From positions 1-62,390 of the forward strand of contig JBDHRV010000003.1 in assembly GCA_039807745.1 (NCBI GenBank): a stretch of DNA of 62,390 bases, in the 5' to 3' direction. A model generated the notes under the pieces. That model worked only from the letters and a program-made list of their open reading frames with translations, was not told the origin of the DNA and searched no databases. Source of the stretch: Burkholderiales bacterium (lineage in GTDB: Bacteria > Pseudomonadota > Gammaproteobacteria > Burkholderiales > JAEUMW01). A program made the position numbers and the translations under genes. Position 1 is the first letter of the stretch; every line of letters begins with the position of its first letter. Shown piece by piece: positions 9,481 to 44,845 of this stretch.

Positions 9481-9550
9481 GGAAACCTCCGGTACGAGGG
9501 TGAGCCGTTTACGTCTCAGTCAACATAGCAGCGGGCATCTTGAGCGCAAG

Positions 9551-11032
9551 TCAGATCACGGCCGGCAGCCCCTCGGATCGGCCAGTCCCCGGCATGTTCC
9601 GGGGCGCCACCGACTGTGCGAACGTGAGGGCGAGGGAGTCGGCGCTGTCGGGGGATGGCAGGCCGATTTTCCGCATATCCTCCTTCGACATCAGCTTGAG
9701 GCGGTTGCCGGCATCGCGCGAGACGGGCTGCGCGACGAGCTCCTGCCTCAGGTCGTCATCCGGCGGGATCTTCGACTCGGTCAACCATTGAGCCATCGTC
9801 CCCCACCACTCGGCCCGGGGGTTGTAGTAATTCAACCGCTCGACCACCACGGAGCGATCGCCGCTGTAGGCGGGCACGACGTTGGTGTAGCGCAGCTGGA
9901 TCAGCCGGTCGTAGACGCCTTTGCCGGCCCCGTGCGCGTCGATGAAGGCCACGTCCGGTCGCTCCTTCGCGAGGATCATGGCGATCTTGTCGGCGAGCAC
10001 CATGTTGTTCGCCTCGGAGAACTTGTAGATGTCCTCCTTGCGCACCAGCGGGCCGCGGCGGAAGGTCAGGACGGTGCGGGAATCGCCGCCGTGAGCGACG
10101 TCGATGCCGCACACGCGCGGCACCGTCATCGGAATGAACTCCTCCTGGATGTCACGGTCGATCGACTCCTGCACGAGCGAGGCGGAAATCAGGCCGGTGG
10201 CCGAGGTCTTGGGCGGCAGGCCGCGCACGCGGACACGCACGAAGTCTGAGTCCTCGCCGTAGTCGTCGACCCACTCATTGAGCTTGGCGTGGTCGGCGGC
10301 CTTCGTCGTGCGCGAGTCGATCGTGTAGGTGAGCCAGCGGTGGCGGAACCGCGTGAAGCAATCCGCGAAGCGGCCGGTCTCAACCGTCGGGTTGCCGAAG
10401 GCGATCCACAGTCCGCCCGGCGTCGTGAAGGCGCCCTCGGAGGCCTGCCAGATGTCGTCGTGGATGGCGCTCGCCTCGTCGTAGACGAACAGCACGTCCT
10501 GCTCGTGCGTGCCTTGGAACGCCGCCGGGTTGTCGCGCGACCACGGGATCGCGTTCGCCGCCCAGAGGTGCCCCTCGCCTTTCAGCCTGAAACTCGTGGC
10601 ACTCCACTCGAACCAGTGACCGTTGAGCGCATGCGTGTAGTTCTTGTTCAGTTCGCGCCAGAGCTTCGTCTCGAGCTGCGTCTTGGTGCCCGCCGTCACC
10701 ACGATCTGCGGATTCGAGCGCGTCGAGAGGAACCACTGGATGATCAGCTGGATCAGCCATGACTTGCCGATGCCGTGACCGGAGCGCACCGCGACCTGGG
10801 TCGTGCGGTCCGGCGTCTGCCCCGTCGCGACCGCCAGCATGTGCGCACCGATGTCGCGCAGCACCGTGGCCTGCCAGAGGTCGGGGCCATCCGGCCAGTT
10901 CGCGTAAGGCGTGCCGGACCTGCCCCACGGGTACATCGTCAGTGCATACCGCCACGGGTCGTACATGCACTCGCTGATCGCTTCGATCAGTTTGATGTCG
11001 TCGTCGGTGGCCTGCAGCGCCTCGGCGGCCAT
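9551..11032 (-). CDS. terL: Terminase large subunit
   Basis: Walker A-like VRSGHGIGKS, Walker B-like VLFVYDEAS, and nuclease-type CGIDVAHGGDSRTV and SPDSADSLALTF. Confidence 0.85.
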   Translation of the reverse strand: MAAEALQATDDDIKLIEAISECMYDPWRYALTMYPWGRSGTPYANWPDGPDLWQATVLRDIGAHMLAVATGQTPDRTTQVAVRSGHGIGKSWLIQLIIQWFLSTRSNPQIVVTAGTKTQLETKLWRELNKNYTHALNGHWFEWSATSFRLKGEGHLWAANAIPWSRDNPAAFQGTHEQDVLFVYDEASAIHDDIWQASEGAFTTPGGLWIAFGNPTVETGRFADCFTRFRHRWLTYTIDSRTTKAADHAKLNEWVDDYGEDSDFVRVRVRGLPPKTSATGLISASLVQESIDRDIQEEFIPMTVPRVCGIDVAHGGDSRTVLTFRRGPLVRKEDIYKFSEANNMVLADKIAMILAKERPDVAFIDAHGAGKGVYDRLIQLRYTNVVPAYSGDRSVVVERLNYYNPRAEWWGTMAQWLTESKIPPDDDLRQELVAQPVSRDAGNRLKLMSKEDMRKIGLPSPDSADSLALTFAQSVAPRNMPGTGRSEGLPAVI

Positions 11033-14000
11033 CAGAACAGCCCCGCGTAGGGCTCGACCTGCCGAGCGATGTCGTTGCGCGCAGCGTTCAGGCGCTCGAT
11101 CTCGGCGCGCTTCTGGTCGCCGGTCAGCGTGCGCGAGCCCTGTACACGGCGCAGCTGCGCATTCAGTTCACGCATGCGCTTGGCGAGGTGATTGAGCTTC
11201 GGGCGCAGCAGCAGGGCTTGACGGTTCTCCTTCGCGACCTCGCGCGCCTGCTCGAACAGCCGCTCGCCCTGAAGCTTCGAGACCGTGCGCGCCGCCTCGT
11301 CTGCCGCGTCCATCATGCGGTAGAGCTCGTCGTGCCAGCGGGTCACGCGCGGCTCGCCGGTGCGCGCGAAGCGGCGCAGCATCACGTCGACCGGCGACTG
11401 CGACGGCGCGTCGTAGTAGCCGCCGGCCGCGCGCACGCTGCGGTCGGCCACTTCCAGGGCCATCATGCCCATACCGCCGAGATAGCCGCGGATCAGGTGC
11501 TCGAGCTGCAGCGGCGAGCGCATGAACGCCGGCGCCGCGTCCGGCATGGCCTGCGCGATGCTGATCAGCGTCGGGGAAGTCCACGGCCGGTACTGCGCCT
11601 CGGGCAGCAGGTTGCGCTCGGCGATCGACAGGATCGGCCGGTTCGTGAAGAAGCTGCGCCCCGCCCAGGCCTCGAGCACCGGCTTGAACGCCTGCGGCAC
11701 CGGATTGAAGGCAAAGGTATCCGTGACCATGCGCACGAGGGACTGCGCGACGTCGCGGAAGCGGTCTTGCCCGCGCATCAGGCGGATCATGCGCTCCGGC
11801 ACCGTGCCGAACAGGGCGCCGACCTCGAAAGGCTTCGGGATGCGCAGGTGCAATTTTCCGAGGAACAGGTGCCAGTTCGCGTCGCGGTCCCATTGCGGGA
11901 GTTCGCGGTAGCGCTCATCGTCATCACCGAGACCCATCAGGGCGATCGTGACCGCGGTCAGCATCAGACCCTTGAACATGAAGCCCATGCGGTTGGCGGT
12001 GAACCCACGCGCGAGGCGGTCGAGGCCCTGAATGCGCGCGTTCAGGAACGGCACCATCATCACGAGCAGCTGCATCGCCGGATGCGCGCCGCGCTGCTGG
12101 AAGTTCAGCACGTCATGGGCCTGATAGGCCGCCTCGGCGTGCGTGCCGCCGCGCTCGCGCACGAGGCGGTAGGTTGCGATGCGGTTGGCGTTCTCCGAGG
12201 CCTGCTGGACCTTCGTATAGACCTTCCAGAGCCGGCGCGGAGAGACCATCGTGCCGGCCATCTCCTCGAGGCGGGTACGGGCGGCGCTGTCGCTCATTTC
12301 GCGCATCAGGGTGCGCTTGAGGTTGCCGCGCTCGTTGTCGTAGACCTGGTCGCCACCAGCGCCGGACATCATCATTTCGGCGACGACCGGATTGTCGGCG
12401 ATGTACGCGACCGCCCCCTTGAGGCTCTCGGTGATGAAGGTCAGTTTCAGCATGTCGCCGACGGACTTGTTCTGGTTCTGCACGACGTTGGAGGCGGTGT
12501 CGCGCAGGTAGTTCGCCATGATGAAGCCGGGCATCGCGGTCACGGCGCGCGTCAGCAGCCGCTTGCTGCCCGAGAGCAGGCCGAAGGTGAACAGGTCGAT
12601 CTGGCGCAGCCACTCGTTCGGGGACATTTCGACGATCGACTGCAGCAGCAGCGGGTCGTGCACCTCGAAGTACTGCGGCTTGCCATCGAACATCACCGAG
12701 ACGATGTTCTTGCCGACGGGGGCGACGCGGCGGAACAGGGTCAGGTAATCGGACGAGGGCTCCTGGCCGACGAGGTTCACGCCCGCGGCCCGCAGGGCCC
12801 GCATCGCCTGATCGGCGCTGATCGTGGTCGGCTGCACCACCTTCGGCAGCCGGGTCGTGGCGACGCCATCGAAGGCGGTCACGATCGCCTGCGCCGCACG
12901 GTTCTTGAACGACGCATCCACCAGATGCGCCGTGTTCATCAGCATCGACTCGAACACGTCCTCGAGCGGGCTCGTGCCGCCGAACAGCGTGCGGATGCGT
13001 GCCCGCTGATTTGCGATCGACTTCTTCAACGAGACGGCGTTCACGCGGCCAGAGACCGACTCCATAGCCCGGTAGAACGGCACATAGTCGTGACGCTCCC
13101 AGATCGCCCTGGCCTCGGGGTCGATCAGGCCCGCCTCCTGCGCCATATCGAGCGTCTGCGTGTTGAAGGTCTGCCAGTCGTCGAACACGTCCTTGAAGAT
13201 CGGGTACTTCTGCTCGAGCTCGAGCGAGCGGTCGATCATTTCCTGGGTGAACAGGCGCTCGCGGCCCTCCTCGATCAGGCGCGAGGCGCGCCGCGCCGCG
13301 GCGTACAGTTCCCACTGAGGCAGCAGGTTGCCGTCGGGGTGATTCACCAGGGGCGCGAAGATTTCGAGGATGCCCTTGCGTCCGTCATTGGCGACGGTAT
13401 AGGCACCGTTCACCCATGCCGGGATGCCCTTGTGCAGGATCGCGGACATCACGGAGCCGAGGTTCTGCGTCGCGACCGTCTGCTTGTAGGGTGAGAGCGC
13501 GGCATCCAGCAGCTTCCCGGCGTTCATCAGCCGCTCGTAGGCGGCAATCGACTGGAACTTGTTGACGATCGCCTGGCGCATGGCGAGACCGGAAATGTCC
13601 GTGACGCGCGTGATGAACAGGCGCATCCGGTCCTTCAGCGGCAGGCCCTCGTGCGCGGCGTTCGCCATGACGTGACGGCGGATGCGCGTGATTTCCGGGT
13701 CCTCGGGCGCGCGGCGCGAGTACAGACGCTCGCGATCCGGCCCCGGCGTCTCAAAGAGCGCCGCAGCGATCGCGTCGTCGAGTGCCTCGATGTCCGTCTC
13801 ACCGAGCGTTTCCTTGTCGAGCACTGCCGGGCGCGTGTAGTAGGCATCCAGCGGCGCACCGGAGCCGATCAGCGGGGAGTCGGCGAGATCCATCGCGTTC
13901 AACTGGCGCAGCGCGGCCTCCTCGGTCGCGGCCGCGTCGATCTTGGCGGCACGAACCCGGTCTGCTCCGGAGATGCGCGCAGCCTCCTGCAGGGCGCGCG

Positions 14001-17000
14001 CGGCACGCGCGATCAGCGCACGCACCTCGGCATCGCTGTATTCGATGTCGACGCCCCACGAGCGCAGCAGGTCGCGAGCCCAGGCGAGCAGCCGGTCGAG
14101 CATCGAGTTCTTCACGCCGCGCTCGGCCATGAGCGCGATCACTTCCTTCGCGTGGCGCACCGGGTCGAGACCGGGCTGCGTCAGCGCCACCTCCTGCCAC
14201 AGCGCGCCGATCGACTTCGAGCCCATCCTGCGCATGTTCCTGACCATGCGCACGGCGCGGTCGATGTCGCCGTACTGCTCAAGCGCGAGATGGCCGAACA
14301 TTTCATGGGTGTACTTGCGCAGCGCCTCCTCGCGGGTCGGCAGCGCCGAGGCGACGAGGTAGATGCGGGACTCGCCATCGAAGTAGACGCCCTCGACATC
14401 ATCGGGGATGCTCGGGTCGCCAGTGGCCTCGCGCAGCGCGGCGACGTCGGCCACAACATGCGTGTTCGCCGCGCCGCGGGTCTTTTCAATGGCCGCGGAA
14501 AGCCATTCCTTGACCTGAGTCACGCTCGCGCCGGCGGCCGGTGTCGCACCGGCACGCGAGTAGAAGGCGTCGTTGGTGATGCGCTCGGAACGATCGGATG
14601 CCATGCGAAGAGAGCCGTTGGCACCGCGCTGCGCGATGTCGAGATCGCGGATATTGCCGGCCGCCAGCGCGGTCATCGCGTTACGAGCCGCGTTCACGGA
14701 CTCCTCGCCTTCCGGAACGACAGCAATCGCTGCCGAGGCATTGGCCTTGCTGGCCTCGGCGAACAGCCGGGCATGACTGGTGCGCGGATCGTCGGTGCGC
14801 AGTCTGCCCATTTCTGCCACGGAAGTCGGCAGCACGCCGACGACGTGATGCCGCCCGTTGAGGAACAGCAATCCGCTCTCCATGCGCGACGCGAACCGCT
14901 CGATCGCCTCCTTGACGTAGGCACTCGATCGCACGATGAACTTGTCGGGCTGGATGCGCGTGAAGCGTCGTTCCAGCATCGGCACGGATTCCTTGCGCAC
15001 CGCGGGCTGAATCCTCTGGTCGAGGTCGCCGTAGGTGCCCGGCGTGTACAACGATGCCTTGCGCGAACCAGGGGCGACCACGATCATCCCGCCGACCTCG
15101 ATGCCGCTGCCGCGCATCAGCGCGTTCAGGTGATCGGTGATCAGATGGTCCGCCTCGCTCTGCTCGATCACGCCCGACGGATGGTTGTGCGCGAAGTAGA
15201 CCTTCGCGACGTTCGGCACGCTGGCGATATGACCGAACACGGTGCCGGGGTCGACGTTGGAGGAATCGCGCAGGCCGACGGTGTGACGCAGCACGGCCAG
15301 CGGGCGGCGCCGCTTGTCGATCGCCAGCATCAGGAACTGTTCCTGCGGGATCTTCCGCAGCGGCGCGATGATGTGCGCAGCAGCAGTCCACTCGTCGATA
15401 GTCGTGATGCCGGTCTTGAATCGGCCGGTCTCGACGAGCGCTACGCGATCGAACGTCCTGGCGGCTTGCTGGCCTTGGAGCGGGAGCGCATCGTTGGCGA
15501 AGATGTCGATCTGTACGGGGCCGGCGGGCTGTACGTTCCCTCGCCCGGCTTTGGCGGGCCGGGAAGCAGCCACCTTTCTTCGGCGGGCTCGTACCTTCGG
15601 GTCTTTTGCGGCTTCGCCTTCATAGACGGCCGCATTCTCCCGCACCTGGGTACTGTCTGTCGAATCAGGCGGCACGACGTTGCCGATGGCGCGCCGCCCG
15701 CCCGCGGCGATCGCTTCCTTGTGGTGCGACTCCGCCTGCAGGGGGCCGAACTTCTCGGCGAGGATCGGCAGCACCCTGCGCGCCTGCTCGGCCGTGATGC
15801 CGGCGCGCATGGAGTTGGCGACGCTGACGAAATCCCCCGTGATGGCGCGCACCTGCGGATCGAGGTAGACATCGCCGCCGCCGCTCTTGGAGCGCGGCGT
15901 CGACAGCAGGAACCCGTCACCATCGGCGAGCAGCCGGACCGAGCCGTCCGCGGTCTCGACGCGCGCCTGCGGGTGGCTCTTGAGCAGCTTCATCGCAGCC
16001 GCGGGCGGCAGTTCGATGGGCTGCGCCGCCTCGAACTCCTTGATGTCGAAGTTGCGCGGCAGCAGCACACCCTGGCGCGTGGCGCCAGTGTCGTCCGTGT
16101 AGTGCACGATCTGGCCGCGCGGCAGCTTGCTGAACCCGGCCAGCAGGTTGCCGGTGACGATGTGCCGGTTCTCTCGGCTCGTGCTCTGCCCGGCGTCGAA
16201 CATCTTGAGGATCGAGCCGAGCAGCGGGTGCTCGGCGCGCGCCTCGACGTAGGTCACGCGAGCCTCGGGCCGAGCCGCGTCCTCGCGGCTCGTCGTGAGC
16301 TTGGAAAACGGTAGCGCAATCTGACGCGCGCCGTCGGCCACCGCAAAGCGCGCGACCCACGAGCCGTTCGCCACCGGCATCTTCACGCCCTTCTTGCGCG
16401 TGATGTCGAGCAGGACGCCGTAGAAGACCGCGCCGTTCTTCAGTTGCAGTTCGTAGGTCTCACCGGGGGTCAGCGTGTCGGCGAGCCCCTTCCACCGATC
16501 GAACTGGCCATCGAGCACGCCGAGGCGCGCGCGTGCCACGACATCCTTGGCGCCGGCGTCGAACATCGCCTTCTCAAGGCCGGCACGGTACTGCTGGAAG
16601 CTGTCGCGCGTATCGCTCGCGGTGCGGCGCCACTTCTCGGCGGCGGCATCCTTGATGTCGTCCCATGCAGCATCCTTGCCGAGACCCGCCTCGCCGGCCG
16701 CCAGTTCACGCACCTGCTCGCTGGTGTAGGGCTTGCCGAGGCGCTTCGCGTCGACCGTCTCGAGGTAGGCCGCGTCGGCAAAGGGACTGTTGGAGTCGCC
16801 CTCGCGCTCAAAGAGCGTGCGCCGCTCGGTCGTCTTGGCGTCGAGCTCGAGCGTTTTCGCCTCAAGCGCGTTCTCGCCCATCGCGTCGGCGCGCGCGATG
16901 GCCTCGCGGTAGCCGGACTCGATCATGTCGTACAGTTCTTCCTGCTCAGCCACCGGCAGCAGCGGGATACGGCCCGTGACCTTGCGCGCCGCGTCCTCGG

Positions 17001-20000: not shown

Positions 20001-23000
20001 CGACGCCGAAGGGCGGGTTGGCGATCACGACGTCCTGCTTATGATCAGGCGCCGTGGCGTCGCTCATGGCATCGCCGACGACCGGATTGAAGCCCATCGC
20101 CTGCAGCGCTGCCGCGCGATCTGGATTCAGTTCGACCGCGTGCGTGTTCCTGGGACTCGCCTCGATCAGCAGCATGCCGTTGCCGGCCGAGGGCTCGTAG
20201 ACGGAGGTCTCGCTCGTGACGCCCGCGAGGCGCGAAGCCAGGAACGCGAGCGGCGCCGGGGTCGAGTACGCTTGCTGCGCCACGCTCGTCGAGGTGCGCG
20301 TGCTGAGCTTGGGCTGCTTGCGGTAGAGGTCCACGAGGTCAGCGAATGTGCGGGCCGGGTCGTTCCCTTCGCCCGCGATGTCGCGCGCTGCGGCCACCAC
20401 GGCCGTTTCGATGATTTCGTCGACGTACTTCAGATCAGCGTCGGTGATCGGTTGCCCGGTCAGTTCGCTGAGGAACTTGCGCGCCTCGACGATCGACTTG
20501 AACCCCTCGCCGCGCAGGCGGGACACAAGCGCATCCATCGCAGCGCCCACCGCCGCCGCTTCGGCGGCGTCATCGGTCTCGCTGGCGCTGGACTCCGGGG
20601 CCGTATCGACGGGTGCAGCCAGGTTGGCCTCCTGCCAACCGCGCGACCACTCCTTCGCCGCCTTCAGCGTCTGGTCAGCCGTGATGACTTCGGTCGGCAC
20701 GGCGGCCGGCTTGCCAGCCAGGAATGCAGCCTTGCCCTGCTCGTAGGGGCTCAGGGTCTGCGTGGGCCGCCCGGCGCTGTCCGCTTCATGCAGATCGAAT
20801 GCCTCGACGTCACCGGCCGAGTCCATCTGCTTCTCGAAGGGCTTTGCGCGCGGGTCGTACTTGACCGCCATGTACCACGACTTGAGGAACGGGCGCACCG
20901 CCTCGCCGAGATCGGCGATCATGGCCTCGGCGAAGGCCGCGAACGTGCGCGCGCCCTTCTCGATGTGATAGCCGGCGAGCGTGATGCCCGCGTTCAGCAG
21001 TTCGGGGTCAATGCCGGTGTTGATCTGCCCGAGTTTCTTGCGCAGCACCGCGCGCGCAGCTTCAGCGGCGTCCTCGGTGAAGATCGTGTTCTTCGAGGGT
21101 CTTGGGGCTGCCTTCGGCGCCGCGGTCTCGGTGAGGTCCGTCTGCTGGCGCGCCTGGCTGAACAAGTCGGACGGATCGCCGGTCTCGGTCGAGTCCTGCC
21201 CGCTGTTGCGCTTCTCGTCGCGCCGGCGCTGCTCGTCGGCGAGCGCCTGCTTCGATACCGGCGCCTCGCCGAACAGGTCGCGCTCTGGTGCCTTCCCGGC
21301 CGGCGGAGCCGGCGCGGCGTCTGGCGGTGCGGCGATCTCGTACTGCTTCGCGAGCCGATCCGCGAGCGCCGTGGCCGCCTCGCGCATTGCCGGCGTGTGG
21401 TCGGCCTGCTGGTTCGACGCGATGCCCCGCATCCAGTTATGCAGGATCGTGGCGGCGCCGTTGATCGCCTCCTCGCGCGTGTCAGCCATGCTCGGTACGC
21501 GGTCATCGAGCGGGCCGGTGCGGCCGAGCATGGTGCCGGTGCGGAACTGGTAGCCGGAGACCGCGCCCCACCGACCATCGGCGAAGCGCCCGAACAGGAT
21601 GTGGGCTTCGAGGCCCTTCTTGCCGCCGGTGATGAATTCGAGCCGTTCTTGGCTCTCGGGCCGCTCGGGGCGGCGCGGCGTTACTTTTGCCGGAGCTTCT
21701 TCGCGACCGCCGCGTCGAACATTTCCCGCATCTGCCTGATCGCCCCGGCGCGCTTCTCCGGCGGGAGGCTGCGCAGGAGGGCCTTGTCCTCCTGAATCAT
21801 CCGGTGCAGGGCCGGATTCCTCGCCGCGAGCGCTCTCGTTTTCTCGCCGGAACCACTCATCTTGCGCGCGTTCCTCGTCGTTGAGGTGGGCATGGTACTC
21901 CTGAATGTCCGCCTCGGACATCACGCTGGCGGCACGCTCCTCGGCCCGGCGCCGCAGCAACTTGACCAGATCCGCATCGCTGATCGCGTTGGCCCGGACG
22001 GTCTGTTCGGCCGCCTCGGTCATACCCTCGATGACGCGCTGCTCGCGCGCGGTGAGTTTCTCGCCCGCGAGCGCCTTCTCGACCAGCGCGACATAGTCGC
22101 CGTCCTTGCCGAGCTTGGTGGACAGGCCCGCGAACCACGGCTCATGCGGCAGCCATTTCGTGCGGCCAACGACGGTGCTGTAGTCCGGGCTGTCTGGGTC
22201 GTCGGACTTGCGGATCATGCGCCCGCCGGTCTCAGACCATCCGGCATGGGGCGCCATGCGGCGCAGTTCTTCGGTCACACCGGGGACGGCCAGCCGCTCC
22301 GCCGTCTCGGGCGCGACGTTCGGGTAGCGGGAATGGGCAGCTTCGTCCGGGGTGAGATCGGCCGCGCTGCCCTGCGGGCTCTGCGCCGGCGTGCTGTGCG
22401 CGCCATCGGCGAGCCAGGCCTTGAACTGTTCCGGCGTGAACTGCGCGATGCCGAGCAGGCCCTTCTCCATGCGCTGACCGAGCCGGCCGCTGAATGAGGC
22501 GCGGTAGGCGGCGCGCGCAGCGTCGACGTCGGCGTAGCCCATGAAGGTCTTGTGCTCGTCGAACTGCCCCGTCTCGAGGTTCGCCTGGTTGAACACGAAG
22601 ATGGGCAGCGAGGCGTTCTCGGGATCTGGCCCGAGCGTGACGTCGATGTGGTCCTTGTCCTTGCCGACGGTGCCGCGGATGTAGCCGTAGTGGTCCGGCA
22701 TCGTCGTTTTCCACGCCCTGCCGTCCTTGTTGGTACCGCTGCGCACCGACCCGCGCGGATTCTCGATGCTGATGTCGAGCCCCTGCACGCGGACATGGCC
22801 CTTGGCATAGTTGCCGGCCTCCTTCTGCGCCTCGGTGGGTTCGGCCTTGCCGTTCGTCGGCGAGGTCGCCGCAGCGTTCGCGGCCGCGTCGATCGACGAT
22901 GGCTGCTGAGCCGTTTGCGGCTCACCCTGGGCAGCGCCAGCCCCGGCGGCGGCCGTCTCGGCCCCTACCGCTGCCTCGCTACCGGCCTGGGGCTGCCCCG

Positions 23001-24657
23001 CTCCTGCGGCTCCTGCGTCGGTCTCAGGGGCGGTCCCGGTGGCGTCCGTGATCAGGTCGCGGAGCGCCTGCGCCGCCTCCGGCATCGTGATCTGCTTGCG
23101 CACCGCGGCCCGCGTGATCTGCTGCACAGCGCCGACGTCGATCCCCTCGGTGGCCTGCGCCTGACGGGCGAGCGCGCTCAGGGTCGCCATGTTGACCTGT
23201 TCGTCCACCGGCGCCGCAGCCTCCGGCGCGCCCCCGGGCGGCGGTGCGCCAGGCGGAGATCCCGGCGCCGTGCCAGCGGCCGGGGCGTCCGGCGCCGGGC
23301 TCGTGGCAGACGCTGCGCCGCCCGGCCGACCCGTCGCGTAACCGATGCCACCGCCGATCAGGCCACCCGCGGCCGCGCCGCCCACCGCCTGGTTCGCTGC
23401 CTGCAGGTACGGGTCGGCCTGATCACCTGTGACGCCCGCCTCGCGCAGCGCCAGCGCCTGCAGCGCACCCTCGGCGCCGGACTGCACGAACTCCTGCCCC
23501 ATTTCCTCGAGCGCACTGACGCCGGCGTTCGCCGCGCGGCCGCGCGCGGCATGCGCAGCCGCCTCGGCGACGCGGCCGGTCAACAACTGGCGCGCGCGAC
23601 CGGCGACCGGGCCGGCGATCGGGCCAGCGGCGAACGTCGTCGCCGCGACCTTCAGGCCCGTAGCGCTGCCGAGCTCGTTGGCGAGTGTCTCGCGGGCATA
23701 GAGAAATCGCTCCTCTGGACCAAGTTCCTGCGCAGCGTCGTAGATTTCCATGAACCGCGGGGAATGGCGCAGCGTCGCCATGTCGAGCGCGTTGACCTGA
23801 TCACGCACCTGCTGCTCGGCAAGTGGTGCCGCGACGGAGGTCTCGCCGAGCCCGTAGCCGGCAGCGTCGAGGATGGCGTCGATCTTCTTCAGGCGCGCCT
23901 CGGCGGCCGTATTGCCGGCGCGCGCGAGACGCTCGAGACCGGCGCGGCGGAACAGCCCCTTCGTGCCCGAGCGCAACAGCTGAGCGGCACCACCACCGGC
24001 GCCGATGCCTGCGACGACACCGGGGATACTTTGTCCCGCCTGCCCGAGCAGCGTGAGGATGTCTGCGTCGCCCCATGTGAGGTTGCCCTCGGCGTCGCGG
24101 CCGACCCAGTTCTTCTGCAGCGAGGCCTGCATCTGCGGGCTCATCTCGCTCTGGATGTCCTGCTGCAGGGCCTGGAACGCGGCATCGCGCACCTGGGTCT
24201 GCTCGCCGAGCTGCTGCACGACGTCGAGGTTCGCCTTCGGGTTCACCTTCTGCGCGACGTTGCCCATGAGGCGTATCGCCGCTTCCTGCACGGTCCCCGG
24301 TGTCGGGATCGGCGAGGTGGCGACCTCGCGCACAAGGTTTGCCGTTCCGCTGGCGAGCACCTTCGGCGCATCGGACAACTTGCCGCGGGTGAACGGCGAG
24401 AAGAAGGCGTCGAGCGCGCCTCGCGGCAACTGGTCCGGCGAGTACAGTCGCTGCTGTGGGTCGATCGTCGGCTGCTGCGGCTGCGACGGGATCAGTTCCT
24501 GCGCGGCAGGACGCCCCCATGATTCATCGAGCAGTGGATCGACGCCGCGATCCGGCAGCGACCGCGCAAGCTGGATCAGCGGGTCGCGGTCGAAGTCATC
24601 GCTCGCGGAAAGATTCGCGAGAAGTTCGCCCTCATCAAAGAGGGGGATGCGGGCCAT
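11032..24657 (-). CDS. Giant polyvalent protein (4541 aa), probably virion-packaged or ejected
   Basis: Single uninterrupted ORF with ATGA overlaps at both ends. It lies between ejection-type proteins and terL. Several enzyme motifs are listed below as sub-features. Confidence 0.9.
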   Translation of the reverse strand: MARIPLFDEGELLANLSASDDFDRDPLIQLARSLPDRGVDPLLDESWGRPAAQELIPSQPQQPTIDPQQRLYSPDQLPRGALDAFFSPFTRGKLSDAPKVLASGTANLVREVATSPIPTPGTVQEAAIRLMGNVAQKVNPKANLDVVQQLGEQTQVRDAAFQALQQDIQSEMSPQMQASLQKNWVGRDAEGNLTWGDADILTLLGQAGQSIPGVVAGIGAGGGAAQLLRSGTKGLFRRAGLERLARAGNTAAEARLKKIDAILDAAGYGLGETSVAAPLAEQQVRDQVNALDMATLRHSPRFMEIYDAAQELGPEERFLYARETLANELGSATGLKVAATTFAAGPIAGPVAGRARQLLTGRVAEAAAHAARGRAANAGVSALEEMGQEFVQSGAEGALQALALREAGVTGDQADPYLQAANQAVGGAAAGGLIGGGIGYATGRPGGAASATSPAPDAPAAGTAPGSPPGAPPPGGAPEAAAPVDEQVNMATLSALARQAQATEGIDVGAVQQITRAAVRKQITMPEAAQALRDLITDATGTAPETDAGAAGAGQPQAGSEAAVGAETAAAGAGAAQGEPQTAQQPSSIDAAANAAATSPTNGKAEPTEAQKEAGNYAKGHVRVQGLDISIENPRGSVRSGTNKDGRAWKTTMPDHYGYIRGTVGKDKDHIDVTLGPDPENASLPIFVFNQANLETGQFDEHKTFMGYADVDAARAAYRASFSGRLGQRMEKGLLGIAQFTPEQFKAWLADGAHSTPAQSPQGSAADLTPDEAAHSRYPNVAPETAERLAVPGVTEELRRMAPHAGWSETGGRMIRKSDDPDSPDYSTVVGRTKWLPHEPWFAGLSTKLGKDGDYVALVEKALAGEKLTAREQRVIEGMTEAAEQTVRANAISDADLVKLLRRRAEERAASVMSEADIQEYHAHLNDEERAQDEWFRRENESARGEESGPAPDDSGGQGPPAQPPAGEARRGDQADAGNVRRGGREEAPAKVTPRRPERPESQERLEFITGGKKGLEAHILFGRFADGRWGAVSGYQFRTGTMLGRTGPLDDRVPSMADTREEAINGAATILHNWMRGIASNQQADHTPAMREAATALADRLAKQYEIAAPPDAAPAPPAGKAPERDLFGEAPVSKQALADEQRRRDEKRNSGQDSTETGDPSDLFSQARQQTDLTETAAPKAAPRPSKNTIFTEDAAEAARAVLRKKLGQINTGIDPELLNAGITLAGYHIEKGARTFAAFAEAMIADLGEAVRPFLKSWYMAVKYDPRAKPFEKQMDSAGDVEAFDLHEADSAGRPTQTLSPYEQGKAAFLAGKPAAVPTEVITADQTLKAAKEWSRGWQEANLAAPVDTAPESSASETDDAAEAAAVGAAMDALVSRLRGEGFKSIVEARKFLSELTGQPITDADLKYVDEIIETAVVAAARDIAGEGNDPARTFADLVDLYRKQPKLSTRTSTSVAQQAYSTPAPLAFLASRLAGVTSETSVYEPSAGNGMLLIEASPRNTHAVELNPDRAAALQAMGFNPVVGDAMSDATAPDHKQDVVIANPPFGVVRTDSGATRGFTVDVGGDFPSMQTNEIDHAISLHALSYLKDDGRAVLIIGGINKLARTEEARSDAYNGAAKRKFFYHLYRLYNVVDHFTVAGELYERQGAGWPVDVIVIHGRGKSSRDLPAADVPRVYSDWAAMAPLLESGDGQASGLGADAEGTGRVPRGGLVRPDSGAGSRSVSGPARGPDTGAGGRLSQSAGGGRAAAPESVGRGAVSGRGERATGVGGEPTGLEQSGDSRAAGSARGAARPGSEAGGNAGSANADRGGPGRSDGSARGVGRPDGKAPVASEGQSPYEPTSSADSVGTLVPSNMRSAIADSLSALVDRVGPLDEYVARELGYEPSSIGKYFSGEQVDALALALDQMQRGAGFIIGDQTGVGKGRVVAGVIRYALKNGRTPIFVTEKPNLYADMYRDLTDIGMQDIRPLMTNAGEKVPLDDDGKVVLKTPAGKAHSQALEEMASTGDLGAHNIVFTTYSQMQTLKGAETSRMAFLRAIAPNAIVIFDESHNAGGNDSARKNQRQMEADAGSKKTGRAAFARALAGLASGVFYSSATYAKRPSVMDLYFKTDMRMAVGGNVEALPDAIQAGGVPLQQVVASMLARAGQYIRRERSFEGVEYNTAETTVDRPAAEQISAIMLSVKEFDDAKKEAVKALAQAAKREAKQISGDGVTGAAGAESTNFTSIMHNAIDQMLLGLKAERAAELAIEALKRGEKPVITVANTMGSFIEEYAEAAGMKSGDAINLTFGDLLARYLERSRDVRIKSPDGTSSRHRMSDEELGPFALSAYRAAEALVRGAGEIASMPVSPIDWIHARIQAAGYTSGEITGRTHTIDYSSAGGRPIYRSRGSKATSIFGRRKTITDFNSGKLDVVVLNQAGATGLSLHASEKFKDKRRRRMIIAQAEKNIDTHMQMLGRVHRTGQVVAPAYDQLVADVPAEKRPAAVLAKKMASLNANTTASRTSAVTSKDTVDFLNQYGDEVVAQLMADLPDVHRRLGEPLDNDSEGFVTEDAARKVTGRIPLLPVAEQEELYDMIESGYREAIARADAMGENALEAKTLELDAKTTERRTLFEREGDSNSPFADAAYLETVDAKRLGKPYTSEQVRELAAGEAGLGKDAAWDDIKDAAAEKWRRTASDTRDSFQQYRAGLEKAMFDAGAKDVVARARLGVLDGQFDRWKGLADTLTPGETYELQLKNGAVFYGVLLDITRKKGVKMPVANGSWVARFAVADGARQIALPFSKLTTSREDAARPEARVTYVEARAEHPLLGSILKMFDAGQSTSRENRHIVTGNLLAGFSKLPRGQIVHYTDDTGATRQGVLLPRNFDIKEFEAAQPIELPPAAAMKLLKSHPQARVETADGSVRLLADGDGFLLSTPRSKSGGGDVYLDPQVRAITGDFVSVANSMRAGITAEQARRVLPILAEKFGPLQAESHHKEAIAAGGRRAIGNVVPPDSTDSTQVRENAAVYEGEAAKDPKVRARRRKVAASRPAKAGRGNVQPAGPVQIDIFANDALPLQGQQAARTFDRVALVETGRFKTGITTIDEWTAAAHIIAPLRKIPQEQFLMLAIDKRRRPLAVLRHTVGLRDSSNVDPGTVFGHIASVPNVAKVYFAHNHPSGVIEQSEADHLITDHLNALMRGSGIEVGGMIVVAPGSRKASLYTPGTYGDLDQRIQPAVRKESVPMLERRFTRIQPDKFIVRSSAYVKEAIERFASRMESGLLFLNGRHHVVGVLPTSVAEMGRLRTDDPRTSHARLFAEASKANASAAIAVVPEGEESVNAARNAMTALAAGNIRDLDIAQRGANGSLRMASDRSERITNDAFYSRAGATPAAGASVTQVKEWLSAAIEKTRGAANTHVVADVAALREATGDPSIPDDVEGVYFDGESRIYLVASALPTREEALRKYTHEMFGHLALEQYGDIDRAVRMVRNMRRMGSKSIGALWQEVALTQPGLDPVRHAKEVIALMAERGVKNSMLDRLLAWARDLLRSWGVDIEYSDAEVRALIARAARALQEAARISGADRVRAAKIDAAATEEAALRQLNAMDLADSPLIGSGAPLDAYYTRPAVLDKETLGETDIEALDDAIAAALFETPGPDRERLYSRRAPEDPEITRIRRHVMANAAHEGLPLKDRMRLFITRVTDISGLAMRQAIVNKFQSIAAYERLMNAGKLLDAALSPYKQTVATQNLGSVMSAILHKGIPAWVNGAYTVANDGRKGILEIFAPLVNHPDGNLLPQWELYAAARRASRLIEEGRERLFTQEMIDRSLELEQKYPIFKDVFDDWQTFNTQTLDMAQEAGLIDPEARAIWERHDYVPFYRAMESVSGRVNAVSLKKSIANQRARIRTLFGGTSPLEDVFESMLMNTAHLVDASFKNRAAQAIVTAFDGVATTRLPKVVQPTTISADQAMRALRAAGVNLVGQEPSSDYLTLFRRVAPVGKNIVSVMFDGKPQYFEVHDPLLLQSIVEMSPNEWLRQIDLFTFGLLSGSKRLLTRAVTAMPGFIMANYLRDTASNVVQNQNKSVGDMLKLTFITESLKGAVAYIADNPVVAEMMMSGAGGDQVYDNERGNLKRTLMREMSDSAARTRLEEMAGTMVSPRRLWKVYTKVQQASENANRIATYRLVRERGGTHAEAAYQAHDVLNFQQRGAHPAMQLLVMMVPFLNARIQGLDRLARGFTANRMGFMFKGLMLTAVTIALMGLGDDDERYRELPQWDRDANWHLFLGKLHLRIPKPFEVGALFGTVPERMIRLMRGQDRFRDVAQSLVRMVTDTFAFNPVPQAFKPVLEAWAGRSFFTNRPILSIAERNLLPEAQYRPWTSPTLISIAQAMPDAAPAFMRSPLQLEHLIRGYLGGMGMMALEVADRSVRAAGGYYDAPSQSPVDVMLRRFARTGEPRVTRWHDELYRMMDAADEAARTVSKLQGERLFEQAREVAKENRQALLLRPKLNHLAKRMRELNAQLRRVQGSRTLTGDQKRAEIERLNAARNDIARQVEPYAGLF
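11035..13710 (-). other. Giant protein aa ~3650-4541: unrecognised C-terminal region with one hydrophobic segment
   Basis: I recognise no motif here. The TM-like FMFKGLMLTAVTIALMGLG lies at nt ~11926-11979, and there is a terminal coiled-coil-like tail. Confidence 0.5.
14068..14475 (-). other. Giant protein aa ~3395-3530: zincin-like metallopeptidase candidate
   Basis: YTHEMFGHLALEQYG, i.e. an HExxGH hexapeptide (nt 14290-14307). This spacing is known from M49 DPP-III. Confidence 0.4.
15058..15435 (-). other. Giant protein aa ~3075-3200: RadC-like JAB/JAMM module
   Basis: FAHNHPSGVIEQSEAD (nt 15172-15189 encode HNHPSG), which fits the JAMM H.H...S..D arrangement. Confidence 0.75.
17098..18975 (-). 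other. Giant protein aa ~1895-2520: Strawberry-notch-type SF2 helicase module
   Basis: P-loop GDQTGVGKGR, DExH box FDESH (nt 18496-18507), and C-terminal LNQAGATGLSLHA...MLGRVHRTGQ. Confidence 0.8.
19138..19584 (-). other. Giant protein aa ~1692-1840: Gly/Arg/Ser/Ala low-complexity linker
   Basis: GDGQASGLGADAEGTGRVPRGG...GGPGRSDGSARGVGRPDG. No secondary-structure-like pattern is visible. Confidence 0.7.
19648..20295 (-). other. Giant protein aa ~1455-1670: N6-adenine DNA methyltransferase module
   Basis: Motif I VYEPSAGNG (nt 20176-20196) and motif IV NPPF (nt 20008-20019). Confidence 0.8.
22522..22824 (-). other. Giant protein aa ~612-712: family-I inorganic-pyrophosphatase-like module
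   Basis: GNYAKGHVRVQGLDISIENPRGSVRSG...W...MPDHYGYIRGTVGKDKDHIDVTLG parallels the PPase E.P.GS / YG.I..T...DGD..DV motifs. Confidence 0.55.
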
Positions 24658-44456: not shown

Positions 44457-44845
44457 GTGCCTCGATAACCTGCAAGCGGGTCGTTGGCGTCGTTCTCGTG
44501 GTCGATGGCGATCATGGCCTGCTCGGCCATCATCCCCTCACGCACGATCACGCTCATGCGACGCAAAATACCGATGTTCATTCTCAGCGCAAGTAGGGCG
44601 CGGCTTTCGGTCTCGGCGTTGGGCAACTGCACGTCATCGGTCAGCGTGCGCAACGCCCGCACCGCCTCGACAACGCAGCTGTGCACGAGCACGCGCCCTG
44701 CGCCGGTGCGCATGAACGCCTGCATCGCCTCGCCGTCCTTGAACACATCGAGCAGCCCCTCCTCGGGGCCGAGGCCCTCGCGGATCGCGCGCTCCTGGTG
44801 AGCCAGAAACTCCTCGGTGACTTCGCTCTCGTTTGTCATGGTCAA
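44453..44845 (-). CDS. Hypothetical protein (130 aa)
   Basis: ATGA overlaps at both ends. Confidence 0.5.
   Translation of the reverse strand: MTMTNESEVTEEFLAHQERAIREGLGPEEGLLDVFKDGEAMQAFMRTGAGRVLVHSCVVEAVRALRTLTDDVQLPNAETESRALLALRMNIGILRRMSVIVREGMMAEQAMIAIDHENDANDPLAGYRGT

What the first reader, a model, noticed from the sequence alone, without database searches (positions are those of the whole stretch)
11032..24657. A 13.6-kb single ORF encodes a 4541-aa polyvalent protein in the ejection-protein slot next to terL
One uninterrupted minus-strand ORF takes up about one fifth of the genome. Its start overlaps the upstream stop, and its stop overlaps the terL start (ATGA at both ends). It sits after Gly-rich and coiled-coil internal-virion-type genes, which is the position held by injected proteins such as T7 gp16 or N4 vRNAP in podoviruses. 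I can read at least five enzyme signatures in it: PPase-like, N6A-MTase, Sbno-type helicase, RadC/JAB and HExxGH. More than half of the length has no motif I recognise. The protein class is already known: polyvalent proteins described by Iyer, Aravind and colleagues, and P1 DarB. From memory, Burkholderia Bcep22-type podophages carry a virion protein of roughly this size. The specific domain string, its delivery route and its targets are untested here.
Basis: partly seen in the sequence, partly recalled or inferred. Interest (0 to 1): 0.8.

Follow-up and report, generated by a model that had tools for sequence, protein, structure and literature searches.

The report
Giant phage protein hiding nested gene
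A real 4541-residue multi-enzyme phage protein of a known kind, probably carried in the virus particle and injected with the DNA, whose gene also encodes, in a second reading frame, a small conserved protein that no database or annotation I could search records.

Summary
The 13.6-kb ORF (11032..24657, minus strand; 4541 aa, 488 kDa) is real. It takes up 21.9% of a circular genome of about 62.3 kb. Profile searches confirm InPase, N6-adenine MTase, Sbno helicase and RadC/JAB, and add a C-terminal LPD38 module. HExxGH is a strictly conserved motif with no family assignment. The junctions read TGATG, not ATGA.

The architecture is a conserved C-terminal module of about 900 aa plus swappable N-terminal cargo. 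That module is shared with PTXU04_00025 (needed for infection) and carries the domain found in virion protein phi24B gp47. Comparable giants of 3100-5600 aa turned up in about 90 other phage or MAG loci. As a giant protein it is therefore a new member of a known kind, the phage-type polyvalent protein.

The unexpected result is that the MTase-helicase linker is dual-coding. In the +1 frame (19155..19577) sits a 140-aa acidic protein, "ORF B", with its own Shine-Dalgarno site and ATG. Its AlphaFold2 model has pLDDT 95 and matches no solved fold. Relatives sit at the same site and in the same frame in nearly all related giants (GC 37-68%), and substitution patterns show that selection acts on the +1 frame. 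ORF B's function is unknown.

A second, unrelated nested ORF is present in cultured Bcep22- and GP4-like phages.

The parts
11032..24657 (-). Giant ORF: 4541 aa, 488 kDa polyvalent protein
   Evidence: GC3 is 0.86. Continuous homologous giant ORFs occur in about 90 other loci.
23371..24498 (-). N-terminal conserved region (aa 54-429), function unknown
   Evidence: BLASTP to Bcep22 gp75 aa 239-583: 30% identity, E = 4e-7. L009 giant: 53% over aa 254-412. No Pfam hit.
22411..22833 (-). InPase-like domain (aa 609-749)
   Evidence: PF18823, E = 1.6e-46. Also matches the unmodelled C-terminus of the Pa193 portal, 9b41.
21681..21893 (-). ORF A: candidate second nested ORF in the +1 frame (70 aa; AGGAG lies 4 nt upstream of the ATG). 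Evidence comes from this genome only.
   Evidence: Codon log-odds over giant aa 921-1020: +1 frame 0.5-0.8, frame 0 -0.15 to 0.27. ORF and Shine-Dalgarno site. No relatives found.
20788..21141 (-). Conserved mid-domain of about 100 aa (aa 1173-1290), function unknown
   Evidence: 50-67% identical to segments of Bcep22 gp75, Skulduggery, Atu_ph08, PBC5 and several IMG/VR giants. No Pfam or NCBIfam hit.
15733..20535 (-). DarB-like methylase-helicase module (aa 1375-2975): N6-adenine MTase, linker, Sbno-type SF2 helicase and its conserved C-terminal extension
   Evidence: One contiguous homology unit, 36-60% identical to proteins of 1800-2000 aa named 'strawberry notch family' and to 80 of 80 IMG/VR giants. 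Pfam hits. Motifs: EPSAGNG 1488, NPPF 1547, GVGKGR 1924, DESH 2051, GRVHRTGQ 2460.
19108..19590 (-). Low-complexity Gly/Arg/Ser/Ala linker of the giant protein (aa 1690-1850), read in frame 0; this is the dual-coding stretch
   Evidence: Frame-0 GC1/2/3 is about 0.83/0.80/0.40-0.57, against 0.69/0.49/0.87 elsewhere in the ORF.
19155..19577 (-). ORF B: nested gene in the +1 frame, a 140-aa acidic protein (MDKQVAW...ARLP)
   Evidence: see the full report.
19585..19588 (-). Shine-Dalgarno-like GGAG, 7 nt upstream of the ORF B start codon
   Evidence: The equivalent motif precedes 91% of 45 distinct nested starts, against 7% of other off-frame ATGs.
15064..15387 (-). RadC-like JAB domain (aa 3091-3198), JAMM-type HNHPSG...D motif intact
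   Evidence: PF04002, E = 5.7e-15; motif.
13978..14517 (-). Conserved HExxGH region (aa 3381-3560): HEMFGH at 3451-3456 and an invariant Glu in AKEVIA at 3503-3508. Candidate variant metallopeptidase.
   Evidence: Motif invariant in nine homologues. No Pfam or NCBIfam model. In several homologues it is contiguous with the C-terminal module.
11035..13740 (-). Conserved C-terminal module (aa 3640-4541) containing LPD38 (aa 4247-4412) and one hydrophobic helix (aa 4225-4243). Proposed virion-incorporation and ejection part.
   Evidence: PF18857, E = 6.7e-44. Homologues. AF2 model pLDDT 74.6, pTM 0.71. TM-score 0.85-0.87 to the C-termini of PTXU04 and related phage giants. No PDB fold match. Hydrophobic helix.
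9551..11032 (-). terL (493 aa); its start overlaps the giant ORF's stop by 1 nt
   Evidence: phrog_2. tblastn to phage terminases. Junction. Same adjacency in L009, L004 and L005.
24657..28153 (-). Five small upstream ORFs, including a TM plus Gly/Ala-rich 300-aa protein and a charged, coiled-coil-like protein. They are syntenic with relatives.

Best explanation
The locus encodes two things.

(1) A phage-type polyvalent protein of 488 kDa. It consists of a conserved C-terminal module of about 900 aa (LPD38-containing, with one hydrophobic helix), preceded by a conserved HExxGH region and by exchangeable cargo. The cargo here is an InPase-like phosphohydrolase, a DarB-like N6-adenine methylase plus Sbno helicase unit, and a RadC/JAB domain.

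Inferred mechanism: the protein is made late with the virion proteins and incorporated into the capsid through its conserved C-terminal (and perhaps N-terminal) parts. It is then ejected with the DNA. There the methylase-helicase unit and the other enzymes act on incoming DNA or on host defences, as proposed for P1 DarB. The HExxGH domain may cleave cargo away from the anchor.

(2) A nested gene. Inside the part of the gene that encodes the disordered MTase-helicase linker, the +1 frame encodes a folded, acidic 140-aa protein (ORF B). It is translated from its own Shine-Dalgarno site and ATG.

Inferred: because it is locked inside the methylase-helicase unit across phyla, ORF B is most likely a functional partner of that unit. 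It could be a chaperone or packaging adaptor, a regulator or inhibitor in the producing cell, or an anti-restriction factor in its own right.

What is shown: the existence of the ORF, its domains, its module boundaries, its synteny, and the dual coding under selection.

What is not shown: packaging, ejection, the enzymatic targets, and the function of ORF B.
For: The giant ORF and its domains:
- ORF, translation and chance expectation.
- Module boundaries from homologues.

Conserved C-terminal anchor with variable cargo:
- PTXU04_00025 (2197 aa) and Vibrio phage 1.232.O gp28 (3292 aa) share only the C-terminal 860 aa, in the same genomic position.
- The fold recurs with TM-score up to 0.87 in phage giants carrying RelA/SpoT, lysozyme or methylase cargo.
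- The closest relatives swap cargo: L009 has Zeta_toxin and LPD37, L004 has InPase only.

Virion association and essentiality in relatives.

Synteny of small ORFs, giant and terL.

ORF B as a real gene:
- The coding signature shifts to the +1 frame.
- 63 representative homologues at E <= 1e-3, nearly all 135-155 aa and aligned end to end.
- A profile hit in 57 of 80 IMG/VR loci and 5 of 14 MAG loci, always inside the giant ORF and always at a +1 offset, at GC 0.39-0.68.
- 24 of 25 further giants without a profile hit (GC 0.37-0.68) carry a +1 ORF at the same site, and its short form is related to ORF B (hhalign probability 89.7%).
- An ATG within about 4 codons of the expected N-terminus in 56 of 58 loci, lengths of 128-148 aa, and stops at the equivalent position.
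- A Shine-Dalgarno motif in 91%, against a 7% background.
- AF2 pLDDT 95.3, pTM 0.90.
- A free-standing DUF3293::ORF B fusion next to hsdS.
- Between close pairs, substitutions fall on the +1-frame wobble position (670/247/286). In the helicase control they fall on frame-0 position 3 (476/327/2084).
- Recoding ORF B synonymously leaves the giant's frame open with mean probability 0.02.
Against: No experimental data exist for this phage, so packaging and ejection rest on homologues and on gene position.

The C-terminal module has no structural similarity to any solved ejection protein (best Foldseek E = 1.3). It has only one hydrophobic helix.

Similarity to P1 DarB itself was not detected with short segment queries. 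The PHROG 'DarB-like' hit covers aa 514-1369, not the MTase-helicase unit.

HExxGH has no family assignment.

ORF B has no functional annotation, no fold match, and no similarity to the P1 DarB packaging partner Ulx. It was not found by tblastn in cultured phages or in plasmids. Its translation has not been observed.

Many ORF B database entries come from short contigs, where gene callers may simply prefer that frame.

The related loci are phylogenetically non-independent, so the pooled counts overstate the number of independent observations.
Confidence: 0.75

Rival explanations
1. ORF B is not translated on its own. Ribosomes reach the +1-frame sequence by programmed frameshifting out of the giant's frame. 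The product would be a truncated protein, running from the N-terminus through the MTase and ending in the ORF B domain.
For: Same strand and a +1 offset in every locus. The free-standing homologue P0046 shows that the domain can work as the C-terminal part of a larger protein. Phages use programmed frameshifts in structural genes (established knowledge).
Against: An ATG at the expected N-terminus in 56 of 58 loci, with a Shine-Dalgarno motif in 91%, would not need to be conserved under frameshifting. I did not look for a conserved slippery site. The +1 frame is generally closed by stop codons just upstream of the ATG (for the window).
Confidence: 0.07
2. ORF B is not a gene. The +1-frame 'family' is a by-product of nucleotide conservation in a compositionally biased linker, and gene callers propagated it into databases from short contigs.
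For: Database members P0105, P0106 and P0048 lie on contigs of 0.9-1.4 kb. Given the linker's frame-0 sequence, the +1 frame stays open fairly often (median probability 0.19). Frame-0 identity is not far below +1 identity (0.335 against 0.387).
Against: The phase of substitutions follows the +1 frame. Start, stop and Shine-Dalgarno site are conserved. AF2 gives pLDDT 95 from a 43-sequence alignment. The BLOSUM score per residue is 1.37 for +1 against 0.87 for frame 0. The domain also exists outside any giant gene, fused to DUF3293. The nested ORF is present in 37-43% GC lineages, where long off-frame ORFs are improbable.
Confidence: 0.05
3. The giant protein is not packaged or injected. It acts inside the producing cell late in infection, for example by methylating progeny DNA, and its position beside the structural genes is incidental.
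For: There are no virion data for this phage. The C-terminal module shows no similarity to solved ejection proteins. A methylase-helicase could in principle protect progeny DNA before packaging.
Against: Proteins with the same size, position or domains are found in purified virions: JC1 gp69 and phi24B gp47. According to the literature cited, P1 DarB acts from the virion. InPase domains also occur fused to portal proteins. The gene is the last one of the virion module in several lineages.
Confidence: 0.1
4. The 13.6-kb ORF is an assembly artefact or a fusion of several genes, with frameshifts or stops hidden by consensus errors.
For: It is a metagenome-type circular assembly. Two stretches lose the frame-0 coding signature.
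Against: Frame 0 has no stop codon in 4541 codons, against a maximum of 587 in shuffles. Homologues align across the module junctions. About 90 independent loci have continuous giants of 3100-5600 aa with the same MTase-linker-helicase continuity. The two anomalous stretches are explained by nested coding rather than by frameshifts.
Confidence: 0.03

Closest known systems
Phage-type polyvalent proteins (Iyer, Burroughs, Anand, de Souza & Aravind 2017, J Bacteriol; PMC5512222)
   Same: Many effector domains in one polypeptide. Encoded beside the portal-terminase packaging genes. Contains InPase and LPD38, the phage-type marker domains, and the methylase-helicase dyad with a Strawberry-notch-type ATPase.
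   Different: It carries RadC/JAB, which that paper listed as found only in the polyvalent proteins of conjugative elements. It has an HExxGH region instead of a recognised HExxH MPTase. The gene contains a nested +1-frame gene; the passages of the paper that I retrieved do not mention nested genes, and I did not search the paper for them.
Bcep22 gp75 / JC1 gp69 'DarB-like antirestriction' virion proteins (Lessievirus)
   Same: Podophage genomes of about 61-64 kb at 65-67% GC. A giant of 4515-4602 aa takes about 22% of the genome and is the last gene of the virion module. JC1 gp69 was detected in CsCl-purified virions. Three homologous segments are shared: N-terminal region, mid-domain and LPD38 module. 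Their genes also contain a nested +1 ORF in a low-complexity linker.
   Different: There is no nucleotide similarity. Only about 1000 aa are alignable, at 24-50% identity. The portal lineage differs (SU10/PTXU04-type here). Bcep22 has no ORF B, and its nested ORF ('ORF C') is unrelated and lies at a different position.
Escherichia phage PTXU04 gp25 (PTXU04_00025) and Vibrio phage 1.232.O gp28
   Same: The C-terminal 860 aa are homologous at 36-37% identity, with TM-score 0.85-0.87. The gene is in the same position after about five small ORFs. The portals are related. Knock-down of PTXU04_00025 shows it is critical for infection.
   Different: They are 2197 and 3292 aa, with different N-terminal content. 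The ORF B profile gives no hit in those loci. terL is not adjacent in PTXU04.
phi24B gp47 (2811 aa; LPD5, LPD1, LPD38, MuF-C)
   Same: An LPD38-containing giant protein of a podophage. It is abundant in the virion proteome, invisible in cryo-EM maps, and proposed to be an ejection protein.
   Different: Known to me only from the paper. I made no direct sequence comparison. Its cargo domains differ.
Phage P1 DarB (2255 aa) antirestriction protein
   Same: An N6-adenine methylase plus SF2 helicase in one virion-associated polypeptide, encoded next to the portal gene. It is the functional model for the aa 1375-2975 module.
   Different: Short-segment BLASTP found no similarity. P1 darB has no ORF B. 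P1's small partner gene ulx lies downstream rather than nested, and it is unrelated to ORF B (hhalign probability 0.2%).
Embedded phage genes such as Rz1 within Rz (spanins)
   Same: A small gene lies wholly inside a larger gene on the same strand, in the +1 frame, with its own start. The two products of Rz/Rz1 are functional partners. The fully embedded Rz1 arrangement is noted; the +1 frame and the partnership are established knowledge of spanins.
   Different: The host gene here encodes a disordered inter-domain linker of a 488-kDa protein. ORF B is a soluble, acidic helical protein and not a lipoprotein. A partnership with the host protein is only inferred.

Membership tests
Phage-type polyvalent protein (Iyer et al. 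2017) | Two or more (up to about 15) distinct effector or enzymatic domains in one polypeptide | tested here: met
   InPase, N6_Mtase, AAA_34/Helicase_C_4, RadC and LPD38 all score above the Pfam cut-offs.
Phage-type polyvalent protein (Iyer et al. 2017) | Encoded in a (pro)phage with a portal-terminase system, among the late/virion genes | tested here: met
   Portal, major capsid protein, tail genes and terL lie on the same strand, and terL is adjacent. The synteny is conserved.
Phage-type polyvalent protein (Iyer et al. 2017) | Presence of domains restricted to the phage type (InPase, LPD38) | tested here: met
   PF18823 at 1.6e-46 and PF18857 at 6.7e-44. The paper's list is quoted.
Phage-type polyvalent protein (Iyer et al. 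2017) | Packaged in the capsid and delivered into the host at infection | not testable with these tools
   Only by analogy: JC1 gp69 and phi24B gp47 in virions.
Phage-type polyvalent protein (Iyer et al. 2017) | Zincin-like metallopeptidase (HExxH helix plus a Glu-bearing helix) for processing; frequent but not obligatory | tested here: inconclusive
   The motif is HExxGH, with a conserved Glu 49 residues downstream. It is invariant in nine homologues. There is no profile hit and no structure was predicted.
DarB-like methylase-helicase antirestriction module (P1 DarB) | N6-adenine MTase and SF2 helicase fused in one virion-gene-linked polypeptide | tested here: met
   Pfam hits plus motifs I/IV (MTase) and I/II/VI (helicase). 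One contiguous homology unit, aa 1375-2975.
DarB-like methylase-helicase antirestriction module (P1 DarB) | Detectable sequence homology to P1 DarB itself | tested here: inconclusive
   BLASTP with two segments of about 100 aa found nothing in P1 DarB. No full-length or profile comparison was made. The phrog_10089 hit covers aa 514-1369 only.
DarB-like methylase-helicase antirestriction module (P1 DarB) | Protects incoming phage DNA from type I restriction | not testable with these tools
   This needs plating assays on hosts with and without type I R-M systems.
Strawberry-notch (Sbno) type SF2 helicase | AAA_34 N-terminal ATPase plus the Helicase_C_4 C-terminal domain, with intact motifs | tested here: met
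   92.6 and 93.3 bits, against cut-offs of 27 and 30.5. GVGKGR, DESH and GRVHRTGQ are present.
RadC-like JAB domain | Profile match and an HxH...D (JAMM-type) metal site | tested here: met
   PF04002 at 55.8 bits, against a cut-off of 22.1. HNHPSGVIEQSEAD at aa 3157.
   Among PDB sequences the only hit is the InPase part of a portal. Foldseek of the C-terminal module gave a best E of 1.3, and 9k2v scored E = 5.8. The resemblance is positional only.
Overlapping (overprinted) protein-coding gene: ORF B | Alternative-frame ORF with start and stop conserved across divergent relatives | tested here: met
   56 of 58 with an ATG at the expected site; 128-148 aa; equivalent stops. Same site and frame in 62 profile-positive loci plus 24 more.
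Overlapping (overprinted) protein-coding gene: ORF B | Purifying selection acting on the alternative frame | tested here: met
   Substitution phase 670/247/286 in the overlap, against 476/327/2084 in the control. BLOSUM 1.37 against 0.87. GC2-type signature in the +1 frame.
Overlapping (overprinted) protein-coding gene: ORF B | Own translation-initiation signal | tested here: met
   Shine-Dalgarno-like run in 91% of 45 distinct starts, against 7% of 4240 background ATGs. In the window, GGAG lies 7 nt upstream.
Overlapping (overprinted) protein-coding gene: ORF B | Evidence that the protein is made | not testable with these tools
   This needs ribosome profiling or proteomics. AF2 pLDDT 95.3 and the free-standing fusion P0046 are indirect support.

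The most novel reading that the evidence does not exclude
The disordered inter-domain linkers of giant virion-delivered phage proteins regularly harbour overprinted genes. The ORF B superfamily, locked in the +1 frame of the methylase-helicase linker across bacterial phyla, would then be an obligate and so far unrecognised partner of DarB-like antirestriction modules. It could be a packaging chaperone, an in-cell inhibitor, or an acidic anti-restriction factor with a new fold. The unrelated nested ORF in Bcep22/GP4-like phages and the candidate ORF A in this genome would be further instances of the same principle.
Probability: 0.4. Interest if true: 0.85.

Novelty: new variant of a known kind. 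Interest (0 to 1): 0.7.

Why it matters
As a giant polyvalent protein, this is another member of a class described in 2017. Its function is still barely tested. It adds one correction: RadC does occur in phage-type polyvalent proteins. It also gives a clearer anatomy, with a conserved C-terminal LPD38 anchor of unsolved fold, a conserved HExxGH region, and swappable cargo.

The nested gene matters more.

- A same-strand overlap of about 420 nt is maintained, in the same frame and at the same site, from 37% to 68% GC and across phages assigned to Proteobacteria, Firmicutes, Bacteroidota and candidate phyla. That makes it one of the more deeply conserved overlapping genes seen in tailed phages.
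- Standard gene callers miss it by design. It is absent from Pfam, PHROGs, NCBIfam and PADLOC.
- It implies that DarB-like antirestriction modules have a missing component. This could explain why such modules have been hard to reconstitute.
- It is directly testable in cultured phages: BS-TP4 for the ORF B type, and Bcep22, JC1 and GP4 for the second family. Virion proteomics already exist for some of these phages and could be re-searched.
- It also warns that the low-complexity 'linkers' of giant phage proteins should be checked for second reading frames.

Tried and rejected
Searches and tests that led nowhere:
- The homologue search with the full 4541-aa query timed out, so I used segments instead.
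- Megablast of the ORF against phage records found nothing.
- Pfam at E <= 5 on eight unassigned segments gave nothing credible.
- NCBIfam gave nothing for ORF A, ORF B, ORF C, the HExxGH region or the mid-domain.
- PADLOC gave nothing for ORF B.
- Foldseek against the PDB gave nothing significant for the C-terminal module or for ORF B.
- tblastn with ORF B against the phage and plasmid collections found nothing. Cultured carriers only appeared once I inspected the linkers directly.
- The ORF B alignments were too divergent for pattern-based genome scans.

Ideas I rejected:
- ORF B as a relative of P1 Ulx (hhalign probability 0.2%).
- ORF A as a relative of the Bcep22 nested ORF (no alignment).
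- The long linker exists only where ORF B is present. Linkers are long everywhere, because nearly all of them carry a nested ORF.
- Hidden compensating frameshifts as the cause of the GC3 collapse. Frame 0 stays open in every lineage, and the substitution phase fits dual coding.

ORF A had no relatives in the viral contigs or in the fetched loci. It remains a single-genome candidate.
Full report
**1. The observation**

An uninterrupted minus-strand ORF runs from 24657 to 11032. It starts with ATG and encodes 4541 aa. Thirty shuffles of the window gave stop-free runs of 399 codons on average and 587 at most. GC3 over the ORF is 0.86. The protein has a mass of 488 kDa and contains no cysteine.

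The window ends with the same 77 nt it begins with. It is therefore a circular assembly of 62,313 bp, and the ORF occupies 21.9% of it.

Both junctions read TGATG, a one-base overlap between stop and start, not ATGA. The downstream gene is terL. The upstream genes belong to a podophage-type virion module:
- an SU10-type portal at 44842..47178;
- the major capsid protein at 42215..43219;
- tail and fibre genes;
- five small ORFs, among them a TM plus Gly/Ala-rich protein and a charged, coiled-coil-like protein.

**2. Domains**

Pfam supports the following:

| Domain | Residues | E-value |
|---|---|---|
| InPase | 609-749 | 1.6e-46 |
| N6_Mtase | 1466-1601 | 2.9e-6 |
| AAA_34 | 1908-2173 | 2.8e-26 |
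| Helicase_C_4 | 2369-2534 | 2.9e-26 |
| RadC | 3091-3198 | 5.7e-15 |
| LPD38 | 4247-4412 | 6.7e-44 |

The catalytic motifs are present: EPSAGNG and NPPF in the methylase; GVGKGR, DESH and GRVHRTGQ in the helicase; HNHPSG...D in RadC.

No profile matches the region. Even so, H-E-x-x-G-H is invariant in nine homologues, and a conserved AKEV[IL]A lies 49 residues downstream. From memory, HExxGH plus a distal Glu is the zinc site of M49 peptidases. Iyer et al. describe variant zincin-like peptidases as the processing enzymes of polyvalent proteins. A metallopeptidase role is a reasonable guess and nothing more.

**3. Module anatomy from homologues**

Local BLAST against retrieved homologues shows the following.
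- aa 1375-2975 is one conserved methylase-linker-helicase unit. All 80 viral loci fetched with the helicase segment share it.
- The C-terminal conserved block is aa 3640-4541. In some homologues it reaches back to about aa 3261-3390 and includes the HExxGH region.
- aa 54-429 and aa 1173-1290 are conserved with Bcep22 gp75 and others.

Altogether about 75% of the protein belongs to a recognisable homology module, against 22% covered by Pfam.

**4. Conserved anchor, variable cargo**

The C-terminal 860 aa are 36-37% identical to the C-termini of PTXU04 gp25 (2197 aa) and Vibrio phage 1.232.O gp28 (3292 aa). Both occupy the same slot after about five small ORFs, and their portals are the closest to this one.

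An AlphaFold2 model of the module (pLDDT 74.6, pTM 0.71) matches no solved structure (best E = 1.3). It does match the C-termini of at least 63 predicted phage proteins, with TM-scores up to 0.87. Those proteins carry RelA/SpoT, lysozyme or methylase cargo.

The closest uncultivated relatives are L009, L004 and L005, with terL 49-75% identical. They keep the order small ORFs, giant, terL but differ in cargo: Zeta_toxin and LPD37 in L009, InPase only in L004.

Giants of 3100-5632 aa were present in essentially all 80 viral loci and in MAG contigs assigned to many phyla. Cultured Bacteroides phage BS-TP4 has one of 5391 aa. The size is therefore not exceptional.

**5. Evidence for the delivery route (indirect)**

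- JC1 gp69 (4515 aa, 22.1% of the genome) gave 51 unique peptides from CsCl-purified virions.
- phi24B gp47, an LPD38 protein, is abundant in virions and was proposed to be an ejection protein.
- Knock-down of PTXU04_00025 shows it is critical for infection.
- InPase domains also occur at the capsid-internal C-terminus of portal proteins.

Bcep22 gp75 shares only three segments with this protein. RadC is present even though Iyer et al. listed it as restricted to the polyvalent proteins of conjugative elements.

**6. The unexpected part: a nested gene**

While checking for hidden frameshifts, I found that the frame-0 coding signature collapses in two linker stretches, aa ~921-1020 and ~1671-1850. 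In both, the +1 frame scores as coding.

In the second stretch the +1 frame holds an ORF of 140 aa (19577..19155), with GGAG 7 nt upstream of its ATG. In frame 0 the same DNA reads as a Gly/Arg/Ser/Ala low-complexity linker.

The evidence that this 'ORF B' is a real gene:
- (a) An exhaustive HMMER search found 63 representative homologues at E <= 1e-3. Nearly all are 135-155 aa and align end to end.
- (b) A family profile hits 57 of 80 viral loci and 5 of 14 MAG loci. Every hit is inside the giant ORF, every hit has a +1 offset, and GC ranges from 0.39 to 0.68.
- (c) 56 of 58 have an ATG within about 4 codons of the expected N-terminus. Lengths are 128-148 aa, and stops fall at the equivalent position.
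- (d) A Shine-Dalgarno-like run precedes 91% of distinct starts, against 7% of other off-frame ATGs in the same genes.
- (e) In the overlap, frame-0 GC1/2/3 is 0.76/0.67/0.38, against 0.59/0.42/0.55 elsewhere. The universal low-GC2 signature has moved to the +1 frame.
- (f) Between close relatives, substitutions fall mainly on the +1-frame wobble position (670/247/286). In the helicase control they fall on frame-0 position 3 (476/327/2084).
- (g) The AlphaFold2 model has pLDDT 95.3 and pTM 0.90.
- (h) A free-standing copy exists, fused to DUF3293, beside a type I specificity subunit in a defence-island-like locus.

If ORF B is recoded synonymously, the giant's frame stays open with mean probability 0.02. 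The continuity of the giant ORF is therefore also under selection.

Twenty-four of the 25 related giants that lack a profile hit still carry a +1 ORF of 88-154 aa at the same site. BS-TP4 is one of them. The shorter form is related to ORF B (hhalign probability 89.7%, E = 1.9e-6).

The family is acidic, with a median pI of 4.4. It has no solved-fold match and no entry in Pfam, PHROGs, NCBIfam or PADLOC. It is unrelated to P1 Ulx and absent from P1 darB. I found no description of it in the searchable literature.

**7. Mechanism**

Shown: a continuous giant ORF; its domain string; its conserved modules and synteny; and a dual-coding linker in which both reading frames are maintained.

Inferred:
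- The giant protein is made late and enters the capsid through its conserved terminal modules.
- It is ejected with the DNA.
- Its methylase-helicase unit and other enzymes counter host defences, as proposed for P1 DarB.
- The HExxGH domain may release cargo from the anchor.
- ORF B is translated from its own start. Because it is physically locked to the methylase-helicase unit, it is most likely a partner of that unit: a chaperone or adaptor, an inhibitor in the producing cell, or an anti-restriction factor.

Its appearance beside a type I R-M locus fits a link to HsdM-like methylases. The support for that link is thin.

**8. Other nested ORFs**

The first anomalous stretch contains ORF A (21893..21681; 70 aa; AGGAG 4 nt upstream). 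It has no relatives and remains a candidate.

Bcep22 gp75 shows the same anomaly at aa ~1440-1560. There the +1 frame encodes a 107-aa ORF preceded by AAGGAGG. It is conserved in 41 Burkholderia and Ralstonia phage records, always underneath the annotated giant gene. In GP4 the frame, length and Shine-Dalgarno site are the same, and the +1 alignment score is twice that of frame 0. Nested genes in the linkers of these giant genes therefore look recurrent.

**9. Verdict**

As a polyvalent protein it is a new member of a known kind.

The conserved nested gene makes the locus a new variant. It raises the interest of the finding and can be tested directly in cultured phages.

Limits:
- there are no expression or virion data for this phage;
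- the related loci are not phylogenetically independent;
- the function of ORF B is unknown.

Noticed in passing
window 21681-21893 (minus strand, +1 frame of the giant ORF): ORF A, a second candidate nested ORF of 70 aa. AGGAG lies 4 nt upstream of its ATG. It sits in a charged, low-complexity stretch (giant aa ~921-991) where the +1 frame scores as coding and frame 0 does not. No relatives were found anywhere.
   Followed up: partly
L092 (Bcep22, NC_005262 record 52337-52660) and L093 (Ralstonia phage GP4, locus 1501-1821): An unrelated 107-aa ORF in the +1 frame inside the annotated 'DarB-like antirestriction' giant gene, with a strong Shine-Dalgarno site. It is conserved in 41 Burkholderia and Ralstonia phage records and annotated in none. 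Between Bcep22 and GP4 the +1-frame alignment score is 160, against 81 for frame 0.
   Followed up: partly
L089 (Bacteroides phage BS-TP4, PQ571277.1; gp3 = locus 514-16689): This cultured phage has a 5391-aa giant protein next to its portal. Its MTase-helicase linker holds an unannotated 119-aa ORF in the +1 frame (giant aa ~2841). That makes it a tractable system for testing the nested gene.
   Followed up: partly
L085-L087 (Logan contigs; P0046 at L085 2460-3458): A free-standing 332-aa protein that fuses DUF3293 (PF11697) to the ORF B domain. It lies between a type I R-M specificity gene plus an HNH-like ORF and a MerR regulator plus a PD-(D/E)XK/RNase_H-like nuclease. This is the only ORF B context found outside giant phage genes.
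   Followed up: partly
window 35323-37351 (minus strand): Two adjacent ORFs (35949-36788 and 36785-37351) consist largely of collagen-like Gly-X-Y repeats, with 58 and 54 triplets. They are probably tail fibres. A 2OG-Fe(II) oxygenase-like gene (35323-35952) lies immediately downstream and could be a prolyl hydroxylase acting on them.
   Followed up: no
window 1-77 and 62314-62390: An identical 77-nt direct repeat at both ends of the window. This is the signature of a circular contig from a k-mer assembler, so the window is a complete genome of about 62,313 bp.
   Followed up: yes
window 15064-15387 (RadC domain of the giant protein): RadC/JAB occurs here in a phage-type polyvalent protein, alongside InPase and LPD38. 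It also occurs in P0022 and P0038. This contradicts the 2017 statement that RadC is confined to the polyvalent proteins of conjugative elements.
   Followed up: partly
window 59796-61763 (plus strand): A 655-aa protein with a C5-cytosine DNA methylase domain (PF00145; phrog_116/32684). It is a second DNA-modification function in the genome, separate from the N6-adenine methylase inside the giant protein.
   Followed up: no
window 38042-40162 (minus strand): A 706-aa protein in the tail region whose C-terminus (aa 535-695) matches a PHROG annotated as amidase. It may be a virion-associated peptidoglycan hydrolase, which would explain why the giant protein has no lysozyme or SLT domain.
   Followed up: no
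L090 (Acinetobacter phage MD-2021a, locus 5221-11181): This is the only related methylase-helicase gene I examined whose linker has no nested ORF; the longest alternative-frame ORF there is 31 aa. The protein is a 1986-aa stand-alone 'N-6 DNA methylase', not a giant, and could serve as a natural negative control.
   Followed up: no
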